In this document: piece after piece, positions 3,805 to 33,263 of the stretch
Layout: each line of letters begins with the position of its first letter
Position numbering within the stretch: the stretch's first letter is position 1
Assembly (NCBI GenBank): GCA_964645975.1
Contig: CAZYAF010000011.1
Coordinates: 11,057 to 75,056, forward strand
Reading direction: 5' to 3'
Source of the DNA: an uncultured Acidobacteriota bacterium
GTDB taxonomy: Bacteria; Acidobacteriota; B3-B38; Guanabaribacteriales; CAZYAF01
Length of the DNA stretch: 64,000 nucleotides
Notes under the pieces: model-generated
What the model saw: the letters and a program-made list of their open reading frames with translations, nothing else
Told to the model about the DNA's origin: nothing
Databases searched by the model: none
Program-made: the position numbers and the translations under genes

Positions 3805-4755
<951 letters not shown>

Positions 4756-15997: not shown

Positions 15998-16029
15998 TAT
16001 ATAACGACATTTAGTGTCAAAATATTACA
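15998..16029 (-). promoter_or_regulatory. ECF-sigma-like promoter upstream of HD-GYP
   Basis: Minus strand TGTAAT-N17-CGTTATA, same -35/-10 class as the repeats at 24976, 25896 and 27493. Confidence 0.5.
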
Positions 16030-16205: not shown

Positions 16206-17183
16206 TTATTTAGCTTTTAAAAAGAAGGGCTGTGTACAGGCAAATTCTCCCGAGGAGGCAAATATTCGAGCTCTGACATATAATTCGTCCCCTTTAAAGC
16301 TATAAACCGCTCTGGTTCCATAGACTTCTTCCAGTATGGTACCATCCTTGCCGATAAAGTAAGTTGTGTATTTCCTGTCGTTATATTGTTCGATTTCAAT
16401 TATGTACTCATTTTCAGTGATGATCACATCCTTTAAGAGAACTCCGATAGTCATATAAAAATTACCATTTTCAAGAGCTTGCACAATAGCCTGAGGTGAT
16501 AATTCTTTTGCTTTCACCATTATCCAGCCTGTCCCAGGATGGGCCTTCCCTGGTCTAAATTCACTAATATAATAGTGTGAATCATCAGAAGCAACACCAT
16601 ATAGTAGAAATCCACCTGAAAGCAATCGATCCCATATTTCTTCCATCCCAAGAGCTCCCCCGGCACTGAAATTATTGCTGGCATAGGTAAAATTATACAC
16701 TTCCAATAGTCGAGCATTTTTTATCTGAGAAATCTCTGCATCGGTAAAAGACCATTCCCGATTCGGATGATTGATTTGTGCAATCCCACCGGCGTTTACA
16801 ATTGCATCCACATTATTTTGTAGCGTCTCCACTATGCTATTGCCGCGCTGGGGCTCAATGCATTCTGTTATATTTATAGCATTAACATGGACCCGAGCAT
16901 CGTTAAACCAATCCGTTACTTCTTCGCCAGGGATAAGAATAAAATCATCATTTTTATCGGTGTCTAAATATTTGATCTCGGTGATATAGTCATGGTCTGT
17001 TATTAAAAGAAAATTATACCCATGGTCCCGATACCATCTCACTACTCTGCGGGGAAGTTCATCGCCGTCGGAATTAGTGGTGTGACAGTGTGTATTTCCC
17101 TTATACCAATGATATTCTTGTGCATGGGCACTAAAGGAAATGAATAAGAACAAAGCTATTATTAAGCAGATAAATCTTCTCAT
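16206..17183 (-). CDS. Secreted PHP-domain metallohydrolase (CehA/McbA-like), copy 1
   Basis: Signal peptide; KGNTHCHT, SDG, ITDH, PGEE, HVNA, INHP, EVYN, ASDDSH. Confidence 0.8.
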   Translation of the reverse strand: MRRFICLIIALFLFISFSAHAQEYHWYKGNTHCHTTNSDGDELPRRVVRWYRDHGYNFLLITDHDYITEIKYLDTDKNDDFILIPGEEVTDWFNDARVHVNAINITECIEPQRGNSIVETLQNNVDAIVNAGGIAQINHPNREWSFTDAEISQIKNARLLEVYNFTYASNNFSAGGALGMEEIWDRLLSGGFLLYGVASDDSHYYISEFRPGKAHPGTGWIMVKAKELSPQAIVQALENGNFYMTIGVLLKDVIITENEYIIEIEQYNDRKYTTYFIGKDGTILEEVYGTRAVYSFKGDELYVRARIFASSGEFACTQPFFLKAK

Positions 17184-17747: not shown

Positions 17748-18722
17748 TTATTTATTAATAAAAACAGGCTGTGTACAGGCGAATTCACCGGAAGTGGCGA
17801 ATATTCGAGCTCTGACATATAATTCGTCCCCTTTAAAGGTATAAACCGCTCTTGTTCCATATACTTCTTCCAGTACGGTTCCATCCTTGCCGATAAAGCT
17901 TGTGGTATATTTTTTGTCGCTATTCTGCTCTATTTCAACTATGTATTCTTTTTCTGTGATAATCACATCTTTTAAGCATACCCCAATGGTCAGGTAAAAT
18001 TCGCCCTGCTCAAGCGCCTGAACAATTGCCTCAAGTGTTAATTCTTTTGCTTTCACCATTATCCAGCCTGTCCCTGGGTTTGCCTTTAAGGGGCTGAATT
18101 CGCCAATATAATTATGAGCATCATCAGAAGCAACACCATATAGTAGAAATCCACCTGAAAGCAATCGATCCCATATTTCTTCCATCCCAAGAGCTCCCCC
18201 GGCACTGAAATTATTGCTGGCATAGGTAAAATTATACACTTCCAATAGTCGAGCATTTTTTATCTGAGAAATCTCTGCATCGGTAAAAGACCATTCCCGA
18301 TTCGGATGATTGATTTGTGCAATCCCACCGGCGTTTACAATTGCATCCACATTATTTTGTAGCGTCTCCACTATGCTATTGCCGCGCTGGGGCTCAATGC
18401 ATTCTGTTATATTTATAGCATTAACATGGACCCGAGCATCGTTAAACCAATCCGTTACTTCTTCGCCAGGGATAAGAATAAAATCATCATTTTTATCGGT
18501 GTCTAAATATTTGATCTCGGTGATATAGTCATGGTCTGTTATTAAAAGAAAATTATACCCATGGTCCCGATACCATCTCACTACTCTGCGGGGAAGTTCA
18601 TCGCCGTCGGAATTAGTGGTGTGACAGTGTGTATTTCCCTTATACCAATGATATTCTTGTGCATAGGTACTAAAGGAAATAAAAAGGAACAAAGCTATTA
18701 TTAAGTAGCTAAATCTTCTCAT
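17748..18722 (-). CDS. Secreted PHP-domain metallohydrolase (CehA/McbA-like), copy 2
   Basis: Same motifs as copy 1; core 18120-18664 appears identical to 16581-17125, ends diverged. Confidence 0.8.
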   Translation of the reverse strand: MRRFSYLIIALFLFISFSTYAQEYHWYKGNTHCHTTNSDGDELPRRVVRWYRDHGYNFLLITDHDYITEIKYLDTDKNDDFILIPGEEVTDWFNDARVHVNAINITECIEPQRGNSIVETLQNNVDAIVNAGGIAQINHPNREWSFTDAEISQIKNARLLEVYNFTYASNNFSAGGALGMEEIWDRLLSGGFLLYGVASDDAHNYIGEFSPLKANPGTGWIMVKAKELTLEAIVQALEQGEFYLTIGVCLKDVIITEKEYIVEIEQNSDKKYTTSFIGKDGTVLEEVYGTRAVYTFKGDELYVRARIFATSGEFACTQPVFINK

Positions 18723-22195: not shown

Positions 22196-22311
22196 TTTTT
22201 TATGAATTTTTTAATATTTTTTAGCGGATATTTAATTTTTCGCTGATTTTATGCTGTAATACAACGCTGGATAAATCATTATTCTTGCTGGTTTCTACGA
22301 AGGAATACCGT

Positions 22312-22716
22312 GTAGGGACAGGGCTTGCCCCTGTCCGGCGGCCCATCTTGTCTTCAATGTTTTTATGTTAATAAAGTTGAATAGTCATCGAATGGATAAA
22401 TAACGAGGAGGCTGTGCCTCTGTAGGGACAGGCCTTGCGTCTGTCCGGCGGCACAGCCGCTTGGTTATTATGTACATTCCAATCCTGGCATATTGTTATA
22501 CAAATATTATTTTGTTAATTATAGAGACGTAGGGACAGGCAGCAATGCTGCTTTGCTATTAAATAATTGGAATATTTATTTTTGTCCCTTTAAAAATATG
22601 ATTTTGAATATAGTATTACAGAGAGGCCATGCCTCCCCTGTCCGATGCAGCTTTAGCTGCTTATATTTTTTCATTCAACGATAGGCAGTATAGGGACAGC
22701 CTATTTGGCTGTCCGC
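22312..22716. repeat. Dense REP-like (GTAG family) cluster
   Basis: gtagggacagggcttgcccctgtccg (22312), gtagggacaggccttgcgtctgtccg plus gcggcacagccgc (22422-22460), gtagggacaggcagcaatgctgc (22529), 46-bp copy (22618-22663), tagggacagcctatttggctgtccgc (22691). Confidence 0.85.
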
Positions 22717-22762: not shown

Positions 22763-24004
22763 CTAAATATTTTCCTTTTTAGGTACATTAAAAGCCATAA
22801 TAGTAAGATAAACCTCTTTGTTAGCATCTTCTGGTTGATGGAATATATATTTAGATATTGTTTCACTTTTTTTCTCAAGCTCACATTTAAAACATTTATG
22901 TTGTGTTACAGCTTCGGGGATTTTTATTAATACTTCACTGAAATTTTTCCTTCTGTTAAATACTAATATTGCAGTTTTTGTATCTCTCCAACTTAAGTAA
23001 CTTAGGAGTTGATCGATTTTATCTAACAAACTTTTTTTACCTTCCCAAAACATGCATTCAGCAATGAATACATTTTTACCTTCATATCGAATTAAGATGT
23101 CGGTTTTGCCTTCATAATTAAAAGTTTCTCCAGTAGCTAATCCTTCATAATGTCCATTAAGATGTACTAAGAAATGCATTCGTAAATCTTCTTCCTTCAT
23201 ATTTGCAAAAGAGCTTGGACTTCTTTCCATAACAAGAACCATATTCTGTAATATTTTTAAAATATGTTCATAATTTTTCATATCAAGAGTTGGTTCAGGC
23301 TTAAATTGTTCAGTTGTGGCTTCTGGTAACTTAATTTGTGGCTTTCTTTTTATTTCTGGAATCACATAAGTTTCAGGAAGGTTATTTCTCTGTTCAATAG
23401 GTATTCCTAAAGATTTGACAAGATTTAAATCTTTAAGTAATTTTTCCTTTCTCCAATTTATAATTTCTTTTATACTTTGCTCTAAAGAGTTGTTAAAGTT
23501 TTCTGCATCTTTTTTTATCCATTGAGAATATTTGTTAATCTTATTCATATCATTTAATATCAGCTCTTTAAGCTTATTAGAATCATGTTCAACCATTTCA
23601 TAAGTTAAATGTATTTTTTGTTCTCTTATTTCCCCACGAGGTGGATTGAAGCTACGAGTTGAAGGTATATATTGAAAAAGCCAGCCATCACCTTCATAGG
23701 GTATAGCGATATTTATTGATATTCCTTTTATATAAACAGGTTTTTCATCATTCATAATCATTCTTTCTGGATCATTGCTTACATCAATATCTACTTCTGT
23801 ATCGTTATGAATATATTTATTTTCTTCATTAATTATAATAGGTTTGATTGTATATTTATTTAATAAAGAATCTATTAGATCAGTTTCGCTTACATTAAGT
23901 AGATAATTTCGATCTAAATTTACAATTTCAGATTTTATTTCATACTTTATGCTATCCAATTTATCAATTAGATTACCATTTCTGTAAAATAATAAATTTT
24001 GCAT
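22763..24004 (-). CDS. Protein with C-terminal PD-(D/E)XK restriction-endonuclease-like domain (putative defence)
   Basis: EEDLRMH...GETFNYEGKTDILIR...FIAECMFW...IDQLLSYLSWRD; strongly AT-rich. Confidence 0.6.
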   Translation of the reverse strand: MQNLLFYRNGNLIDKLDSIKYEIKSEIVNLDRNYLLNVSETDLIDSLLNKYTIKPIIINEENKYIHNDTEVDIDVSNDPERMIMNDEKPVYIKGISINIAIPYEGDGWLFQYIPSTRSFNPPRGEIREQKIHLTYEMVEHDSNKLKELILNDMNKINKYSQWIKKDAENFNNSLEQSIKEIINWRKEKLLKDLNLVKSLGIPIEQRNNLPETYVIPEIKRKPQIKLPEATTEQFKPEPTLDMKNYEHILKILQNMVLVMERSPSSFANMKEEDLRMHFLVHLNGHYEGLATGETFNYEGKTDILIRYEGKNVFIAECMFWEGKKSLLDKIDQLLSYLSWRDTKTAILVFNRRKNFSEVLIKIPEAVTQHKCFKCELEKKSETISKYIFHQPEDANKEVYLTIMAFNVPKKENI

Positions 24005-24055: not shown

Positions 24056-24931
24056 TTAAAAAATCCTAGATTTTAATGCTTTTTCAATTAGGTAGTTAAT
24101 GAAAGCAGAGCAGGAGACGAGCATATACTTTGCATCTTCGAAATAAATCTTCGCTTCATCAAGCATAGCATGTCGTATGCCTTCTTCATCACTAGTATAT
24201 CCATAGATTTTTTCAAATCCATCCTTTAGCGCTTTATGTATAGTAATTTTACCTTTCTTCTCTATTGATTTCAAAGCGTTACCAAGAGTAGCTTTATCAT
24301 CTCCTGAAATAATTTTACATATAGATTCAACAGCACTTATTGATTCTTTAATAGAATTCCTATAATCAGGATTTTTTCTATCAGATAATTTAGATAATGA
24401 ATCCTCAATATGCTTGGTTACTCCGGTTAATTTAAACTCCTTGCTTCTATCAATAGCTTCTTCTATTTCATTTATCTCACTTTCATTGGTAATTGGAGTT
24501 ATTAGATTACCAACAAATCGGTAACCTGAGCATTCTCGCTCCAATATAATATTACATTCTTTTTTGTATTCATCACTAAAAAAGGGGAATTCGAGATTAG
24601 CAATAAATTGTATAAAACTATAAACTTCATGCCATTCACACTTTAAAAACCATTCCCTAATGCCACGATAAATTGGTGAAACATCATTAGTTAAGTTATC
24701 AATTGGTGTCTTGAAAAAGTCACTCCATATTTTTCTAGAAAATTGTATTAAATAATAATCTTTTCTATTGTTTCTTTTTATGTTAATTAAATGAATGAAC
24801 CTTAAATAAAATATATTTAACAAAGAATTTCTTAAATCATCATCCATCGAATCAATCTGAAGTTTTGTTTTAATAGGTTTTTTTCCTATTCTTTGAGAGA
24901 ATGTAAGATTTTTTTTCTTTCCTTTATGCAT
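24056..24931 (-). CDS. AbiJ-N-terminal-like domain plus HEPN-like C-terminal domain (putative abortive infection)
   Basis: FSQRIG...LQIDSMDDDLRN N-terminus; SIKESISAVES and YGYTSDEEGIRHAM C-terminus; AT-rich. Confidence 0.65.
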   Translation of the reverse strand: MHKGKKKNLTFSQRIGKKPIKTKLQIDSMDDDLRNSLLNIFYLRFIHLINIKRNNRKDYYLIQFSRKIWSDFFKTPIDNLTNDVSPIYRGIREWFLKCEWHEVYSFIQFIANLEFPFFSDEYKKECNIILERECSGYRFVGNLITPITNESEINEIEEAIDRSKEFKLTGVTKHIEDSLSKLSDRKNPDYRNSIKESISAVESICKIISGDDKATLGNALKSIEKKGKITIHKALKDGFEKIYGYTSDEEGIRHAMLDEAKIYFEDAKYMLVSCSAFINYLIEKALKSRIF

Positions 24932-24975
24932 TTTTCTTTCATTTTAAAGATTTCTATTAATATAATTATACCATC

Positions 24976-25023
24976 ATTATATATAAACGACAAAAAGGGG
25001 GGTGTATTACAGGTTTTTAAAAA
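24976..25023 (-). promoter_or_regulatory. Conserved promoter-bearing repeat, copy A
   Basis: Minus strand tttttaaaaacc-TGTAAT-acacccccctttttgt-CGTTTA-tata; near-identical at 25896 and 27493. Confidence 0.75.
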
Positions 25024-25194
25024 TAATAGTGATGTATTTAGTCATCTTTCCTCTAACCATAATTACCTTTCAGTGTTATAGCTGTGGGATTACTATCGTG
25101 GGATATCTTTCAGGAATGCAGCATGGACATACCATTATCATTGGACTTAATAACTAAATCCTTTTCTGATTGGCTATTGTCTGAGCTATTTGCG

Positions 25195-25746
25195 CTATTC
25201 AGGAATTAGATAGCCGCGCAGAATCAGGTGTTGAAGCCCAAAGGGAGGTCCTTGAGGACCGGGAAAAAGATCGGGACATATCCTTGCCTTCGATGACACG
25301 ACAAACCCGCTGGTCATGCTCTCACTTATTCCCCCTTCTCCGAACTGGTTGAGAATTACGGTGGACTCAAATACCCTCCGCATATTAGGATGAGGATGAG
25401 GCCCCGGGTGATCTGTTACCTCCGCTAAATTGTAAATCATTAAGCGCAGTATCATCATTTTGTAAGCCTGCTCTTCATAATGGTATTGCCAGTCTACGTC
25501 TGTAATGACAAGCATCTTCCCCTGGGGAATCCTGAAGAAACTGCTCGCTCTTGTGCCATCGGGCAGAGTTCTTATAAAATCCCACTTAGCCACACCACAG
25601 CCTTCTACTGCACCACCAACGACTTCCAGCACCACATGCTCACTTGGTGGTACTCCCATATGAGTGGTATTTGTTGGGGGCGCAGGACAAGCAACCAGCC
25701 ACAGAATGGCTGAAAAGATAATGAAGCTTTTTATTATTTTATCCAT
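25195..25746 (-). CDS. Hypothetical lipoprotein
   Basis: Lipobox LVAC after a hydrophobic signal; beta-rich domain. Confidence 0.7.
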   Translation of the reverse strand: MDKIIKSFIIFSAILWLVACPAPPTNTTHMGVPPSEHVVLEVVGGAVEGCGVAKWDFIRTLPDGTRASSFFRIPQGKMLVITDVDWQYHYEEQAYKMMILRLMIYNLAEVTDHPGPHPHPNMRRVFESTVILNQFGEGGISESMTSGFVVSSKARICPDLFPGPQGPPFGLQHLILRGYLIPE

Positions 25747-25895
25747 AATCAAACCTCCACATATATGTTATGGATACACTCTCTCTTCTAAAAAATGTTA
25801 AGTCTTATAAATTATTATTATTAATGAAGATATAAATAAGCTCTTCTTTATTAAAGATGTCTTTTATTATGTAGATAAAAGGCCCTCTACTATGT

Positions 25896-25937
25896 TAAAC
25901 GACAAAAAGGGGGGTTATATTACAGGTTTTTAAAAAA
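25896..25937 (-). promoter_or_regulatory. Conserved promoter-bearing repeat, copy B
   Basis: taaacgacaaaaaggggggttatattacaggtttttaaaaaa on the plus strand. Confidence 0.75.
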
Positions 25938-25999
25938 AGTGGCTTTGTTTTATCAGCATATTTTTATAAAAAGCTTATTCCCCTCTTGGATAAAACTTT

Positions 26000-26614
26000 T
26001 TATTCAGCGAAGATGGCTGCTATCAGGTTATTGCCGAAGGTGTAGACGGTGTCTTCGAAGTGTTCCAGGTGTTTCTGGCAGGTTTGGAATTCGCGGGTTA
26101 ATGCACTTGATTTATCCTTCACGCTATATCTGGTGGCCAGGTTGCCGATATGCTGGTGCAGGGCCTGCGATTCGTCCATCAACTTGCACCATTGCTCCTC
26201 TATGCTGGAGAGAGCTGCTGAAGACTCTTGGTCGATAAAGAGCAATCGTAACTGGCTGCGGATGACGATGGCGTTTTTGAACCAATCGTTGGACACCCGG
26301 TTGTAGTCATCTATAATCAGCTTTTGCTGCTGCACATTGGAGATGGAATATTCATAGATGGAGATGACCCGCTGCACCGCCACAATGTATTCCGAGGTCT
26401 GGTCGAATATCCTGTTATACAGGCTCTCCCAGGCCTTTTGATGCGCTTGTATGCGGGCGTATTCCTGCTCCAGCCTGGCTTGGTAGGTATATTCCTTCTT
26501 ATGCCAGTAGTAGGTCAGGAAGCTGCCGATTACGCCGGTCAGCAAAAAACCGATGACCGTTACCATAAGGGCCGAATCGTACCATAGGGTGGTTTTCTCA
26601 CTTGATTTTGCCAT
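26000..26614 (-). CDS. Hypothetical single-TM protein with helical soluble domain
   Basis: N-terminal TM VTVIGFLLTGVIGSFLTYYW; visibly GC-richer than its flanks. Confidence 0.7.
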   Translation of the reverse strand: MAKSSEKTTLWYDSALMVTVIGFLLTGVIGSFLTYYWHKKEYTYQARLEQEYARIQAHQKAWESLYNRIFDQTSEYIVAVQRVISIYEYSISNVQQQKLIIDDYNRVSNDWFKNAIVIRSQLRLLFIDQESSAALSSIEEQWCKLMDESQALHQHIGNLATRYSVKDKSSALTREFQTCQKHLEHFEDTVYTFGNNLIAAIFAE

Positions 26615-26636
26615 TGCCTTTACTCTCCCTTAGTTA

Positions 26637-27425
26637 TCATTCTTTCTTAAGGTGATAGACAATCTTCACTTCTTCTCCCGGCTTGAATGATTTCACTCTG
26701 ATTTCCGCATGGATATCGTCATGATACGACTCGTAGATATACACATGATTTTTCACAATCAGGGAGCAGTCACAATAGCCACTGAGGGGGTAATTAATAT
26801 CGCATAAGCTTTTGTTACCCTGCTCCCCGACTGAGGATATCCCTCCTTTACCTCTTCGAGAATAGAGATGTTCGTCCTGGAAATATATATCCGCTGCCTC
26901 CTTCTCAACTACATCACCGCTGCTGAATGCCAGTCCCTGCGCGTTTTTCAAAACAATTTCTCTTGTTTCGCATTGTTCCTCTTCTTCAACCGCTCCTTCG
27001 GTATCCGCTTCCTCATCTGGAGGCCAGGGGAGATCAGGGTCAGCTTCTGCGGAACGGAGGTCCAATTGATAAGAGCTTACTGCAAAGCCCTCTAATACCA
27101 GCCTTAGATCGATTATCCCTGATGGGGCTTGTTCTTTTCGAAGAGACATGCGGAAATGACCAGTCTCCGTAGTAGTTAACGAATAGGGTATGCCTGATTT
27201 ATCAACAAAGGAAATAGTTACTCCGGGTATGGGTTTGCCTTCAGAATCGGTAACCTCTCCTTTTATTTCCGCCTTATTTCCCTTTATGTTTATATCAGTA
27301 ATATTTACATTTAAAGGTTTGCTTTCTTCTGGCTGTTGTTGGCAACCGAAGAGCAGGAAAAAACTGAGAGAAGAGATGAGGAGCGATATTATTATGGATA
27401 CAAATATATCTCTTTTTATATTCAT
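26637..27425 (-). CDS. Lipoprotein with carboxypeptidase-regulatory-like domain
   Basis: Lipobox LFGC; IKGEVTDSEGKPIPGVTI...TTETGHF; acidic linker; RBS gagga before ATG 27425. Confidence 0.7.
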   Translation of the reverse strand: MNIKRDIFVSIIISLLISSLSFFLLFGCQQQPEESKPLNVNITDINIKGNKAEIKGEVTDSEGKPIPGVTISFVDKSGIPYSLTTTETGHFRMSLRKEQAPSGIIDLRLVLEGFAVSSYQLDLRSAEADPDLPWPPDEEADTEGAVEEEEQCETREIVLKNAQGLAFSSGDVVEKEAADIYFQDEHLYSRRGKGGISSVGEQGNKSLCDINYPLSGYCDCSLIVKNHVYIYESYHDDIHAEIRVKSFKPGEEVKIVYHLKKE

Positions 27426-27492
27426 GATGAAACTCCTCAATTTATAGTAGTTAGCTAAGTTAAAAGAATGCTTTTCTTATTATAGCTTATCT

Positions 27493-27529
27493 ATTATATA
27501 TAAACGACAAAAAGAGGGGGTGTATTACA
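27493..27529 (-). promoter_or_regulatory. Conserved promoter-bearing repeat, copy C
   Basis: attatatataaacgacaaaaagagggggtgtattaca on the plus strand. Confidence 0.75.
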
Positions 27530-27626
27530 ATTTGGTGTGATTTTTTTTGTGGGGAGGGATTAATTCAGTTTATGTGTGGATGGTTTTTGTTGAGGGGCAA
27601 AGTGGTGTCGTTCGGTTGAATGTTAT

Positions 27627-27735
27627 CGTGGCTTCTTTGTAATTTATTGTATATAAAGCATTTCAGTTTAGCTAAGGAAGCTGGATTTGTATGGGGATGC
27701 ACATATAACCAGGCGGCTGTGCCGCCTGTCTCTGC
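27627..27735. repeat. REP-like modules (reverse orientation)
   Basis: aggcggctgtgccgcctgtctctgc (27711-27735) is the reverse of the gtagggacaggcggcacagccgc type; cgtggcttctttgtaat (27627-27643) is the reverse of the module near 311. Confidence 0.65.
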
Positions 27736-31519: not shown

Positions 31520-32751
31520 CTTTTTTCATCCTCCTCATCGAACAGATTTAATTGACCGTTGCGGTTTAGTTTAGAGAGGTAAATGGAATAGCTCTTTTCT
31601 ATTCTGGCATATTCTTTGACTTTTTCAATTAATTCTGGACTCCAGTGCTCTTTTATTAAAACTTTATTAATTGCAGAAGTACTTAGCTGCGAGACCTCCA
31701 TCCATTTTCCTTCAGTCTGAAGGAGTTCTTCCAATTCCTGGCGCTGTGTTTGCTGACTTTTATCGGGGAACTTCAGCTTATCTTCTATTTTAATGCTCAG
31801 CTTGTTGTCTTTACCGACTAATACCTCAAGTTTCTCTTTGCGTGCATAAGCGATAATCGCATCCTTGAGTTTTTCCAGCTCTTTACCTATTCGGTTTATT
31901 TCATTTTTTAATCTGGCATATTTCTCTACTAACATTACACCGTCATCTTTTAGATATTCGTTCTCTTTAAGTGGTGTGATCTTTGCCAGGTGCTTTCTCT
32001 TTGGGCATAAATAGTCATATTCGCACCATTCGCAGAGAATGCTCTCCCGGGAGGGGAATTGACGACAGCTTTCAATTCGTTGTATGAGCTCGATGGTTTC
32101 CTCTTGAAGCTGTTGGAGTTCTTCGGAGGTACGTTTTGAACGAAGTTCTTTATTAAAGATAAGATAATGCCAGATGAGTTCTACATCATTGTTATCGACA
32201 TTCCATTCGCGTTCACCAGCAAGTTGGTAGAGGGCAAGTTGGCGGTCAGTATCAATTTTGCTCTGCGTTGGTAGTGTTCTTGATGTTTTGTAATCATGAA
32301 TTTCATAGGTACCATCAGGCCGTTGAGCCAGACGGTCGATTATTCCTCTGAATTTATAGCTGCGGTAGTCACCCAGATCAGTTGCTACAGTAGCTTCCAA
32401 CGCCAGTGTTTTTTCGCTATCAAAAGGGGTATAGTACTTGTAATAGTTTTTAATACATTTTTCTCCCATTTTTTTGTAGTTTTCTGGGGAGTATTCTTGT
32501 TTTACGATGCGGATATTGTGATGCCAGCGTTGTTGCCAGAGGTGGTGATAGTAATCGAGGAGCTCAGATAAATCGTTCAATCTGGAATAGAGCAGGTCAG
32601 CATAGAGTTTTTGCAAAACACAGTGGACTAAATTGCCCGTGAATGCTTCAATGTTCTCTGTTTCTGTGCGGATTCCATCGATGTATTGAAACTTATATTT
32701 TAAAGGGCACTGCTCAAATGTGGTGAGCCGGCTATGAGAATAAATAGTCAT
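31516..32751 (-). CDS. RecB/Cas4-like PD-(D/E)XK nuclease with probable Fe-S cluster and C-terminal helical extension
   Basis: SHSRL...QCP, GNLVH, GIIDRL, IHDYKTS, QLALY, CEWCEYDYLCP. Confidence 0.85.
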   Translation of the reverse strand: MTIYSHSRLTTFEQCPLKYKFQYIDGIRTETENIEAFTGNLVHCVLQKLYADLLYSRLNDLSELLDYYHHLWQQRWHHNIRIVKQEYSPENYKKMGEKCIKNYYKYYTPFDSEKTLALEATVATDLGDYRSYKFRGIIDRLAQRPDGTYEIHDYKTSRTLPTQSKIDTDRQLALYQLAGEREWNVDNNDVELIWHYLIFNKELRSKRTSEELQQLQEETIELIQRIESCRQFPSRESILCEWCEYDYLCPKRKHLAKITPLKENEYLKDDGVMLVEKYARLKNEINRIGKELEKLKDAIIAYARKEKLEVLVGKDNKLSIKIEDKLKFPDKSQQTQRQELEELLQTEGKWMEVSQLSTSAINKVLIKEHWSPELIEKVKEYARIEKSYSIYLSKLNRNGQLNLFDEEDEKR

Positions 32752-33263
32752 TATTCGGTTTTTTTTCTAAGCAGGGAGCCAAGGTTTTCTATAGCTTTTA
32801 GCTTTTGCTCTTCATTAAGAGACTTAACGATCTCTATTATCTTAATATCTTCTTTGGATAGTATGATTTTTTCTTCAACATATCCACATTTGGGGCATAC
32901 TGTTGCTAAAGCTTTTTGGTTTGAGTAATTTTCCCATACCATCTTGAACTGTTGTTGGTCTGCATTCACAAGTTCGACGAATTGCCCGCCAATCCTGTAG
33001 AGACTGTTAGGAATTATCTCCTTACTTCGTACTACTTTTAATACGCCGCGAACAGGTGCGCCAAAACTTGGGAGAAAGAATCTGACACCCAATTTCCTGC
33101 CTTCTTTATATGTGCTTTTAGATTCGAACAAGATTCCCTTTTGACTGATATTAATGATATTACATCTTTCCCGGTAAGGTTCGCCAACGTCAGGTTCTAT
33201 TTCGAGCCAGACAGGAATATTTAACTCATAGCGAAAAAATTCTCTATCTTTACTATTATCCAT
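32751..33263 (-). CDS. PilZ-domain protein (c-di-GMP receptor) with CPKC tail
   Basis: RxxxR (REFFR) and NxSxxG (NISQKG); C-terminal CPKCG followed by a helical segment. Confidence 0.75.
   Translation of the reverse strand: MDNSKDREFFRYELNIPVWLEIEPDVGEPYRERCNIINISQKGILFESKSTYKEGRKLGVRFFLPSFGAPVRGVLKVVRSKEIIPNSLYRIGGQFVELVNADQQQFKMVWENYSNQKALATVCPKCGYVEEKIILSKEDIKIIEIVKSLNEEQKLKAIENLGSLLRKKTE

What the first reader, a model, noticed from the sequence alone, without database searches (positions are those of the whole stretch)
24976..27529. Array of unrelated gene cassettes each headed by the same ~40-bp promoter-bearing repeat
Seen in sequence: three near-identical elements (24976, 25896, 27493) read on the minus strand (tttttaaaaacc)TGTAAT-a(c/t)a..ccccc..tttttgt-CGTTTA(tata). 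Each precedes a different one- or two-gene unit (AbiJ-like plus nuclease; lipoprotein; lipoprotein plus TM protein), and these units differ visibly in GC content. Established: TGTAAT/GTAAC-N16-17-CGT is the ECF-sigma promoter pattern. Inference: the spacer is also conserved, which independent promoters would not require, so the element may be a shared entry or recombination point of a variable cassette array that supplies each incoming gene with an ECF promoter. No integrase or attC is visible here.
Basis: partly seen in the sequence, partly recalled or inferred. Interest (0 to 1): 0.68.

Follow-up and report, generated by a model that had tools for sequence, protein, structure and literature searches.

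The report
Shared sigma-factor promoter on defence genes
The three repeats are copies of one roughly 55-base promoter found 34 times in this uncultured sediment bacterium, most likely read by an unusual sigma factor encoded beside a caspase-like (TPR-CHAT) sensor protein, and it switches on many foreign-looking genes, including several anti-phage defence genes, so it is a regulon signal and not an integron-like insertion site.

Summary
TGTAAT-N14/15-GTCGTTTA occurs on the minus strand at 24984-25011, 25896-25924 and 27501-27529, and a fourth copy lies at 16004-16029.

It is not a local cassette repeat. A matrix scan finds 34 copies on 19 contigs of the 4.4-Mb genome and none in the reversed control. 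The copies are co-oriented and clustered, lie near contig ends more often than expected, and head low-GC accessory genes. At least nine units carry defence-type genes: AbiJ/PDC-S32 with PDC-S54, GmrSD-HNH, HNH, HEPN, Shedu, TIR, and CHAT with QatC-like.

The likely reader is a divergent ECF-type sigma factor on another contig. It sits in an operon with a zinc-motif/TM/TPR protein and a TM/TPR-CHAT protein. The motif lies directly downstream of this operon in five lineages (sigma 52-84% identical), where only the motif and the ribosome site are conserved. The closest known system is Myxococcus DdvS/DdvA.

Neighbouring copies are more alike than distant ones, and most keep an unused ribosome-binding box, so the module probably spread by copying. 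No integrase, attC or strain-level cassette variation was found. In the one species-level indel of a promoter-plus-gene unit, the breakpoints lie outside the promoter.

No transcription start has been mapped. A small AraC-type regulator remains a rival reader.

The parts
24970..25023 (-). Promoter module copy 1. It comprises an A/T tract, TGTAAT (25011-25006), a 14-nt spacer, GTCGT (24991-24987), an A/T run and a purine box. It heads the AbiJ/PDC-S32 and PDC-S54 genes.
25882..25936 (-). Promoter module copy 2: TGTAAT 25924-25919, 15-nt spacer, GTCGT 25903-25899. It heads the 183-aa lipoprotein gene.
   Evidence: 25 of 27 non-core positions identical to copy 1
27487..27541 (-). Promoter module copy 3: TGTAAT 27529-27524, GTCGT 27508-27504. 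It heads the lipoprotein and TM-protein pair. Together with about 60 nt upstream it is 86% identical over 94 nt to a copy on contig C13.
15987..16041 (-). Fourth promoter copy in the window, of the 'AAAT' spacer class: TGTAAT 16029-16024, GTCGT 16008-16004. It lies upstream of an HD/HD_5-domain gene.
   Evidence: HD Pfam call
24056..24931 (-). AbiJ_NTD4 protein, PADLOC candidate defence gene PDC-S32. GC 28%.
   Evidence: Pfam 111 bits; PADLOC E 7.6e-113. Homologs are widespread in other phyla, the nearest at 59% identity.
22763..24004 (-). PADLOC candidate defence gene PDC-S54, the second gene of unit 1.
   Evidence: PADLOC E 2.7e-152
25195..25746 (-). 183-aa lipoprotein of no known family (unit 2).
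26637..27425 (-). 262-aa lipoprotein with a CarboxypepD_reg domain (unit 3, gene 1).
26000..26614 (-). 204-aa single-pass membrane protein of no known family (unit 3, gene 2).
27705..27728 (-). REP-type G+C hairpin and terminator-like site after the upstream pseudopilin-like gene. It bounds the array on its 5' side.
22292..22670 (.). REP hairpin cluster that bounds the array on its 3' side.

Best explanation
Each repeat is one copy of a promoter module of about 55 nt. The module has an A/T-rich upstream tract, an invariant TGTAAT, and a 14-15-nt spacer with a central G+C patch followed by a T5 or A4T tract. Then come an invariant GTCGT(T), 11 purely A/T positions and a purine-rich Shine-Dalgarno-like box.

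The genome holds 34 copies, so the module defines a regulon. The three units in the finding, and a fourth at 16 kb, are independent transcription units of that regulon lying in a flexible, REP-bounded island.

The most likely reader is a divergent ECF-type sigma factor encoded on contig C24 (not in the window). It sits in an operon with a 326-aa protein (HxxxCxxC zinc motif, one TM helix, TPR repeats; probably the anti-sigma) and a 948-aa membrane-anchored TPR-CHAT (caspase-like) protein.

Inferred mechanism, by analogy with Myxococcus DdvS/DdvA. An envelope signal, possibly phage attack, acts through the TPR-CHAT and TPR proteins and frees the sigma factor. The sigma factor then transcribes all motif-headed units at once, including defence genes, lipoproteins, membrane proteins and small AraC-type regulators.

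The regulon has one or two promoters in small-genome relatives and 34 here. The module appears to have spread by copying in front of acquired low-GC genes.

Shown: the motif, its copy number, geometry, clustering and gene content, and its conserved position next to the sigma/TPR-CHAT operon. Inferred: that this sigma reads it, the nature of the signal, and how copies spread.
For: Motif class:
- 34 sites score at least 22 bits, against 0 in the reversed genome.
- TGTAAT and GTCGT are invariant in about 30 of the 34, at AAT-N17-CGT spacing.
- Ten pairs lie within 5 kb, all co-oriented, against 1.2 expected (P<2e-4). Eleven of 34 lie within 4 kb of a contig end, against 3.4 expected.

Gene content:
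- First genes have median GC 33%, against 38.4% genome-wide (p=5e-8).

Sigma link:
- The layout sigma, ZAS-TM-TPR, TM-TPR-CHAT, [motif], 71-75-aa gene is conserved in G000, G004, L088, L091 and L093, with sigma identity 52-84%.
- In the intergenic DNA only TGTAAT, GTCGTT and the SD are conserved.

Sigma identity:
- It scores 42.7 bits against TIGR02937 (cut-off 42.9) and 20.8 bits against Sigma70_r2.
- NCBI and JGI name homologs as sigma-70 family proteins.
- Foldseek hits of the AF2 model are almost all sigma factors, for example sigmaE/RseA (1or7, E 5e-4), FliA, CnrH and SigW.

Partner proteins:
- The CHAT domain scores 220 bits.
- TM helices and the HxxxCxxC motif are present.

Copying:
- Neighbouring copies are more alike than distant ones (p=0.002).
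- An SD-like box lies at +8 to +16 in 19 of 34 sites, against 1-4 of 34 in other windows, and is mostly unused.

Precedents:
- ECF promoters adhere closely to consensus, and spacer T-tracts matter (PMC5758882).
- DdvS/DdvA controls a defence island (PMC11506125).
Against: - No transcription start data exist; no RNA run holds this organism.
- The sigma gene has no copy of the motif upstream, so the link rests on adjacency of a target promoter and not on autoregulation.
- Relatives G001 and G003 each have one motif site but no detectable sigma/TPR-CHAT locus. They are MAGs 93% and 80% complete.
- The -35 element ends in AAT, not the usual AAC.
- The T-tract is next to the -10 element, not next to the -35 element as in Bacillus.
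- The sigma scores just below the curated family cut-offs.
- A TAtAaT-like hexamer 5 nt after GTCGT would also allow an activator-dependent housekeeping promoter.
- Two small AraC-type genes carry the motif, and one ortholog in G001 does too.
Confidence: 0.62

Rival explanations
1. The motif is the operator-plus-promoter of a small, HTH-only, MarA/SoxS-like AraC-type activator that regulates its own gene. TGTAAT and TGTCGT would be two direct half-sites 21 bp apart, and the TAtAaT hexamer 5 nt downstream would be a -10 box read by the housekeeping sigma.
For: - Two paralogous small AraC genes (C1 32524 and C7 58873, 48% identical) are both headed by the motif, and the C1 gene has a tandem double copy.
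- Orthologs occur only in same-order relatives.
- The only site in G001 (TGTAAT-N13-GTCGTTTA) lies 378 nt upstream of its small AraC gene.
- G002, which is 100% complete, lacks both the motif and the AraC gene.
- G001 has a site but no sigma/TPR-CHAT locus.
- A TAnnnT hexamer sits at a fixed offset after GTCGT in most sites.
- Earlier AI notes describe TGTAAY-N15-TGTAAY operators with small AraC regulators in Bacteroidota. These notes are leads only.
Against: - The two blocks differ in sequence and are both invariant over about 30 sites, which is typical of sigma recognition and unusual for activator half-sites.
- TGTCGT would lie at -23 to -18, inside the spacer, an odd place for an activator site.
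- A monomeric two-HTH AraC domain spans about 20 bp, not two blocks 21 bp apart.
- The second AraC ortholog examined (G004, L042) has no motif in the 490 nt upstream.
- The motif's conserved position directly after the sigma/TPR-CHAT operon in five lineages has no explanation under this model.
- AraC genes as regulon members fit the sigma model equally well.
Confidence: 0.2
2. The repeat is a recombination or entry site of an integron-like cassette array, or a target for promoter-to-promoter homologous recombination of circular cassettes. On this reading each incoming gene lands behind, and thereby duplicates, a promoter copy.
For: - Units of unrelated, differently composed genes lie in co-oriented arrays at eight or more loci.
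- Neighbouring copies share non-core positions.
- Sites are enriched at contig ends.
- A related species carries a promoter-plus-Exo_endo_phos unit that G000 lacks.
- AbiJ-type genes are widely mobile, whereas the promoter is lineage-specific.
Against: - None of the five tyrosine recombinases lies near an array.
- No attC-like inverted repeat is present, and the repeat sits at the 5' end of each unit and is asymmetric.
- Similarity between copies is confined to 35-41 nt.
- About half of the sites are solitary.
- All same-population contigs from four or more samples have identical order and no indels in this locus. A strain that is 1.4% diverged keeps the copy 3 junction.
- In the one indel found, the breakpoints lie outside the promoter and no promoter copy remains at the empty site.
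Confidence: 0.08
3. The motif is read by one of the roughly eleven other ECF sigma factors of the genome, for example the SigZ/ECF238-type factor with a cysteine-rich tail on contig C44. Its position next to the C24 operon would then be incidental.
For: - ECF238 factors lack anti-sigma factors and are not fully autoregulated (PMC6851896, PMC7826278). That would explain why no sigma gene carries the motif.
- G001 and G003 have sites without the C24-type locus.
Against: - No positional or phyletic link of any other sigma factor to the motif was found.
- Several other ECF genes have their own distinct AAC-N16/17-CGT sites upstream.
- The conserved adjacency in five lineages favours the C24 sigma.
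Confidence: 0.1

Closest known systems
Myxococcus xanthus DdvS/DdvA (PMC11506125): an ECF sigma factor and a transmembrane anti-sigma factor with a periplasmic TPR-CHAT domain, controlling a CBASS plus type III-B CRISPR-Cas defence island
   Same: - An ECF-type sigma factor is encoded with a zinc-motif (HxxxCxxC) anti-sigma-like N-terminus, one TM helix, TPR repeats and a membrane-anchored TPR-CHAT caspase-like module.
- Several promoters of one type drive anti-phage genes.
   Different: - Here the anti-sigma-like protein (326 aa) and the TPR-CHAT protein (948 aa) are separate genes.
- The sigma is longer (230 aa) and very divergent.
- It does not carry its own promoter motif.
- The regulon is dispersed (34 promoters on 19 contigs), mostly single-gene systems, and also includes lipoproteins and regulators.
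- The lineage is Aminicenantes-type.
- Homology to DdvA could not be shown by sequence or fold.
Type III-E CRISPR Craspase accessory module: Csx29 TPR-CHAT protease, Csx30, and the ECF sigma RpoE (PMC10028731, PMC9825189)
   Same: A TPR-CHAT protease is genetically coupled to an ECF sigma factor and a sigma-binding partner in an immune context.
   Different: - No CRISPR effector is present.
- The TPR-CHAT protein here has an N-terminal membrane anchor and is probably extracytoplasmic.
- No cleavage target is known.
Bacillus subtilis ECF regulons (sigma W, M, X, V) and their spacer T-tract (PMC5758882)
   Same: - A regulon of roughly 30 promoters that adhere closely to a bipartite consensus.
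- A homopolymeric T-tract in the spacer and A/T-rich surroundings.
   Different: - The -35 element is TGTAAT, not TGAAAC.
- The tract lies next to the -10 element.
- The -10 block is unusually long (GTCGTTtATAT).
- The target genes are largely accessory or defence genes rather than envelope maintenance genes.
Putative mobile promoters / promoter reuse (Nijveen, Matus-Garcia and van Passel 2012, PMC3575422)
   Same: Near-identical upstream sequences stand in front of unrelated genes in one genome, with no known mobile element attached.
   Different: - The identity here usually spans 35-41 nt, below their criterion of 50 nt. Only one pair reaches 94 nt at 86%.
- The sequence is a defined sigma-type promoter with a candidate reader.
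Integron cassette arrays
   Same: Co-oriented arrays of short, unrelated, often defence-type gene units.
   Different: There is no IntI integrase and no attC or attI site. Each unit has its own promoter instead of sharing one Pc promoter. The repeat lies 5' of the gene.

Membership tests
ECF sigma-dependent promoter class | Bipartite -35 (AAC-type) and -10 (CGT-type) elements at 16-17 bp, close to consensus across a regulon | tested here: met
   AAT-N16/17-CGT is invariant in about 30 of 34 sites, and the reversed control gives none. The -35 element ends in AAT, not AAC.
ECF sigma-dependent promoter class | A cognate sigma gene linked to the motif, usually by autoregulation | tested here: inconclusive
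   No sigma gene has the motif upstream. The motif does lie directly downstream of one sigma/anti-sigma/TPR-CHAT operon in five lineages.
ECF sigma-dependent promoter class | Transcription starts 5-9 nt downstream of the -10 element and depends on the sigma factor | not testable with these tools
   No RNA run holds the organism.
DdvS/DdvA-type defence-controlling ECF system | ECF sigma, a ZAS-type transmembrane anti-sigma, and an extracytoplasmic TPR-CHAT module | tested here: met
   Sigma fold; HxxxCxxC motif, one TM helix and TPR repeats in the 326-aa protein; N-terminal TM helix, TPR repeats and CHAT (220 bits) in the 948-aa protein. The architecture is split over two genes.
DdvS/DdvA-type defence-controlling ECF system | Homology to DdvA or DdvS | tested here: inconclusive
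   phmmer against the PDB gives only generic TPR hits. The CHAT part of the model has pLDDT below 50, and Foldseek gives TPR proteins only.
DdvS/DdvA-type defence-controlling ECF system | The regulon consists of anti-phage systems | tested here: inconclusive
   At least 9 of 34 units carry defence-type genes: PDC-S32/S54, an NsnA-like GmrSD, HNH_5, HEPN, HSDR_N, SduA, TIR-TM, and CHAT with QatC-like. The remaining units encode lipoproteins, membrane proteins, regulators or proteins of unknown function.
Integron / cassette array | An adjacent IntI-type tyrosine recombinase and attI site | tested here: not met
   There are five Phage_integrase hits in the genome; none lies on the contig of the window array, and the nearest to any site is about 21 kb away on C1.
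Integron / cassette array | An attC imperfect palindrome at the 3' end of each promoterless cassette | tested here: not met
   The repeat is asymmetric and lies 5' of each unit. Each unit has its own promoter.
Integron / cassette array | Cassette gain or loss between strains, with junctions at the repeat | tested here: not met
   Gene order is identical in all same-population contigs. The one indel between species has its breakpoints outside the promoter. No sister strain of intermediate divergence was available for this locus.
AraC/MarA-type activator operator | A regulator gene associated with, and preceded by, the site across genomes | tested here: inconclusive
   Met in G000 (two genes) and G001. 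Not met for one G004 ortholog.
Putative mobile promoters (PMPs) | At least 80% identity over at least 50 nt upstream of non-paralogous genes | tested here: inconclusive
   Most pairs match over 35-41 nt. One pair (copy 3 and C13 111576) matches over 94 nt at 86%.

The most novel reading that the evidence does not exclude
A CRISPR-independent, split DdvA-like sensor made of an ECF-type sigma factor, a ZAS-TPR anti-sigma and a membrane-anchored TPR-CHAT caspase-like protein acts as a master switch for a dispersed anti-phage and envelope regulon. In this Aminicenantes lineage, newly acquired defence genes would be wired to that switch by receiving a portable 55-nt promoter-plus-ribosome-site module. 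The module would spread by local duplication or by promoter-to-promoter recombination. This process would have expanded the regulon from 1-2 promoters to 34.
Probability: 0.3. Interest if true: 0.8.

Novelty: new variant of a known kind. Interest (0 to 1): 0.62.

Why it matters
Anti-phage genes are usually treated as self-contained and constitutively expressed, and only a few cases of a common transcriptional switch are known. DdvS/DdvA is the best-studied case, and its signal is still unknown.

Here one promoter type ties more than 30 mostly single-gene, foreign-looking units to a sigma factor encoded with a TPR-CHAT protein, in a phylum with no genetics. These units include AbiJ-like, GmrSD, Shedu, TIR, HEPN and CHAT/QatC-like genes.

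If the link holds, three things follow:
- It gives a second, architecturally split example of TPR-CHAT-controlled sigma signalling.
- It gives a ready list of co-regulated candidate defence genes, including many of unknown family.
- It gives a clear case of how horizontally acquired genes obtain host-specific regulation through copying of a short promoter module.

If the link does not hold, the finding is an ordinary alternative-sigma regulon.

Tried and rejected
- Housekeeping-type reading (TTGTCG as -35, TATAAT 17 bp later): it fits copy 1 only and is not conserved in other copies.
- FliA/sigma-28 reading (TAAA-N15-GCCGATAA resembles TAAT-N15-GTCGTTTA): the genome has no FliA-type sigma, and the only group 2/3-like factor (C16) is RpoS/RpoD-like.
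- Known RNA element: no Rfam match at E<=0.1 in 15-29 kb.
- Motif in public genomes: a scan of 185,579 species gave 17 chance-level hits. The Tenacibaculum and Sphingobacterium hits lie in coding DNA, and one Aminicenantes MAG had a real site. The metagenome scan gave two loci: one a 98.6% strain of this organism, the other an unrelated CPR contig.
- Strain comparison of the window locus: all contigs that carry the flanking or cassette proteins are 99.8-100% identical. The only mismatches lie in two paralogous PHP-like genes. Low-coverage runs from other studies gave only short identical pieces and REP-driven joints.
- More distant relatives through the neighbouring beta-lactamase-like gene: the nearest are 65-68% identical and sit on contigs under 3 kb.
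- Contig break next to the C34 array: C34 joins C26 across a 228-bp gap with no structural variant.
- AbiJ paralog on C13: 43% identical, with no motif upstream, so it is not a duplicated cassette.
- Structure of the TPR-CHAT protein: the model is too poor in the CHAT part to compare with DdvA.
Full report
**1. The observation**

On the minus strand the window carries TGTAATACACCCCCCTTTTTGTCGTTTA (24984-25011), TGTAATATAACCCCCCTTTTTGTCGTTTA (25896-25924) and TGTAATACACCCCCTCTTTTTGTCGTTTA (27501-27529). The gapped pattern matches exactly three times, with none expected in shuffles. The repeat finder reports the copies as families D7 and D9.

Each copy precedes a different unit:
- Copy 1 precedes an AbiJ_NTD4 protein that matches PADLOC PDC-S32 (E 7.6e-113), followed by a PDC-S54 protein (E 2.7e-152).
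- Copy 2 precedes a 183-aa lipoprotein of no known family.
- Copy 3 precedes a CarboxypepD_reg lipoprotein and a 204-aa membrane protein.

GC runs from 27% to 47% across the units. REP-type hairpins bound the array at 22.3-22.7 kb and 27.7 kb.

**2. The element is a genome-wide class, not a local repeat**

The window is C11:11057-75056 of a 4.40-Mb, 56-contig, 37% GC assembly. A two-block weight matrix built from the first matches finds 34 sites of at least 22 bits and none in the reversed genome. One of these is a fourth site in the window, at 16004-16029 (minus strand), upstream of an HD-domain gene.

All sites share one architecture:
- an A/T tract;
- TGTAAT;
- a 14-15-nt spacer, A/T at its ends, with a central G+C patch and then either T5 or A4T;
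- GTCGT(T);
- 11 positions with almost only A or T;
- purines at +12 to +17.

The 'CCCCC-TTTTT' spacer of the three window copies also occurs on contigs C3, C4, C17 and C34. Similarity between copies is confined to 35-41 nt. The exceptions are one 94-nt pair (copy 3 and C13 111576, 86%) and a tandem duplication on C1.

The sites are strongly clustered. Ten pairs lie within 5 kb, all co-oriented, against 1.2 expected. Eleven of 34 lie within 4 kb of a contig end, against 3.4 expected. The first genes after the sites have a median GC of 33%, against 38.4% for genome ORFs (p=5e-8).

**3. What the units encode**

Defence-type content:
- AbiJ/PDC-S32 with PDC-S54;
- a GmrSD_N-HNH protein (NsnA-like);
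- HNH_5;
- HEPN, followed by an XRE-M78 gene;
- an HSDR_N-type nuclease-like protein with an ion channel;
- a run containing Shedu SduA (195 bits);
- a TIR/TIR-TM protein;
- a CHAT protein with a QatC-like protein;
- a second, weak CHAT protein.

Other content:
- two pentapeptide-repeat membrane proteins;
- PilZ and DUF2254 proteins;
- a large HATPase_c protein;
- an XRE-cupin regulator;
- two small AraC-type proteins;
- many lipoproteins and membrane proteins of no known family.

AbiJ homologs number in the thousands across phyla, and the nearest is 59% identical. The promoter, in contrast, is essentially confined to this lineage:
- 30 relatives have at most two sites;
- a scan of 185,579 species gave only chance-level hits plus one Aminicenantes MAG;
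- the metagenome scan added a 98.6% strain of this organism.

The genes are therefore mobile, and the promoter is host-specific and must have been attached in this lineage.

**4. Who reads the motif**

The genome has 16 Sigma70_r2 matches: RpoD, an RpoS-like factor and about twelve ECF-type factors. None has the motif upstream, and several have their own AAC-N16/17-CGT sites.

The weakest match, a 232-aa protein at C24:25509-26207, is followed by two genes. The first encodes a 326-aa protein with HxxxCxxC at residues 29-37, one TM helix near residue 115 and TPR repeats. The second encodes a 948-aa protein with an N-terminal TM helix, TPR repeats and a CHAT domain (220 bits). The motif site at C24 30246 lies immediately after, heading a 75-aa membrane and proline-rich protein.

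The same layout, with the motif in the same intergenic gap, occurs in four other sequences:
- relative G004 (sigma 52% identical);
- an ENA contig (55%);
- a Logan contig (52%);
- a JGI contig of a relative at about 80% nucleotide identity (sigma 83%, -35 variant TGTGAT).

In the alignment of the five gaps only TGTAAT, GTCGTT and the ribosome site are conserved.

The protein is a genuine sigma. It is borderline on TIGR02937 (42.7 bits against a cut-off of 42.9). NCBI and JGI call its homologs sigma-70 family proteins. The Foldseek hits of its AlphaFold model (pLDDT 69) are almost exclusively sigma factors: sigmaE/RseA, FliA, CnrH, SigW and BldN.

I therefore take this sigma as the most likely reader, by conserved adjacency of a target promoter. 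This is inference, not proof.

**5. The rival reader**

Two paralogous small HTH-only AraC proteins are headed by the motif. Orthologs exist only in the same order. In G001 the single site (spacer N13) lies 378 nt upstream of that gene. G001 and G003 show no sigma/TPR-CHAT locus.

These are incomplete MAGs, and AraC genes may simply be conserved regulon members, but an autoregulated MarA/SoxS-like activator cannot be excluded.

The points against the AraC model are:
- the invariance of both blocks over about 30 sites;
- their different sequences;
- the position of the second block inside the spacer;
- the conserved location of the motif next to the sigma operon.

**6. How the copies arose, and the cassette idea**

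Copies in the same cluster share more non-core positions than copies elsewhere (15.8 against 12.4 of 27, permutation p=0.002). Window copies 1 and 2 are the most similar pair in the genome (25 of 27).

Nineteen of 34 sites keep a Shine-Dalgarno-like pentamer at +8 to +16, against 1-4 of 34 in other windows. Only four or five of these are followed by a start codon. In the conserved promoter next to the sigma operon, that box is the real ribosome site. Both facts point to copying of a module of about 55 nt rather than independent evolution.

The integron-like reading, however, fails its tests:
- No recombinase lies near an array.
- There is no attC-like structure.
- Gene order is identical in every contig of the population and in a strain 1.4% diverged.
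- In the one clear gain or loss, no promoter copy remains at the empty site and the junctions lie 166 bp and 156 bp away from the unit. This is a 1.46-kb promoter-plus-Exo_endo_phos unit present in the 80% relative and replaced by 150 bp in G000.

Units are thus gained or lost whole. The promoter is cargo, not a demonstrated crossover point.

**7. Comparison with known systems**

The nearest described system is Myxococcus DdvS/DdvA. It has an ECF sigma and a transmembrane anti-sigma whose cytoplasmic part is a zinc-binding domain and whose periplasmic part is a TPR-CHAT module. It drives four promoters of a CBASS plus CRISPR defence island (PMC11506125).

Here the same parts are present but split over two proteins, the regulon is dispersed and much larger, and sequence or fold homology to DdvA could not be shown.

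Type III-E Craspase systems also couple a TPR-CHAT protease to an ECF sigma (PMC10028731).

Two general points from the literature fit the pattern seen here. ECF promoters adhere closely to consensus and use spacer T-tracts (PMC5758882). Promoter reuse in front of unrelated genes is documented (PMC3575422).

**8. Verdict**

The recombination-site reading is not supported, although promoter copying is.

The system is a new variant of a known kind: a sigma regulon of the DdvS/DdvA type.

The main uncertainties are the absence of any transcript data, the indirect sigma assignment, and the AraC alternative.

Noticed in passing
window 27620-27735 (and G000 C13 107291-107397, C3 225925-226027, C26 1-97, about 15 copies in all): A REP/MITE-like repeat of about 100 nt lies just upstream of promoter copy 3 and recurs near other promoter sites and at contig ends. 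Its G+C hairpins look like terminators.
   Followed up: partly
window 16206-17183 and 17748-18722: Two tandem paralogous 324/325-aa secreted PHP-like genes. Every mismatch between this assembly and the 99.8% JGI contig falls inside them, which suggests gene conversion or assembly mixing between the paralogs.
   Followed up: partly
G000 C1 32055-32520; L041 1860-2260; L042 900-1090: The small AraC gene has a long leader of about 270-470 nt. In G000 the leader begins with a tandem duplication of promoter plus about 170 nt. Part of the leader is conserved between relatives G001 and G004. It could be a cis-regulatory RNA or a small ORF.
   Followed up: no
G000 C4 61728-67739: A motif-headed operon: a 108-aa TM protein, a 1033-aa CHAT protein, a 249-aa protein, a QatC-like protein (PADLOC 95.7 bits) and a 138-aa protein. 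It may be an undescribed CHAT/QatC-type defence system.
   Followed up: partly
G000 C44 (minus strand; sigma domain at about 4043-4240): A SigZ/ECF238-type sigma factor with a cysteine-rich tail is read in frame with about 180 N-terminal residues that start with a signal peptide. This is either a fusion, a lost stop codon or an assembly artefact.
   Followed up: no
window 32751-33263 and G000 C34 30810-31319: PilZ paralogs. One sits inside the AAA-PilZ-PDDEXK-arginase operon without the motif, and the other is a solitary motif-headed gene.
   Followed up: no
L015 / G004 C128 36695-36723: In the Aminicenantes relative, one motif site heads three paralogous ABC-2-like permease genes and is divergent from an Hsp20 gene. 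G000 has no ortholog of these permeases.
   Followed up: partly
G000 C24 11404-19619: An 8.2-kb segment present in G000 but absent from the syntenic contig of the roughly 80%-identity relative (L088/L094). It shows that such relatives exist in JGI samples 3300057013 and 3300056889 and could serve for island comparisons.
   Followed up: no
L091 980-1708 and 9994-10722: In one relative, the sigma/TPR-CHAT locus is flanked by two identical-length CI/LexA-like S24 peptidase repressor genes.
   Followed up: no
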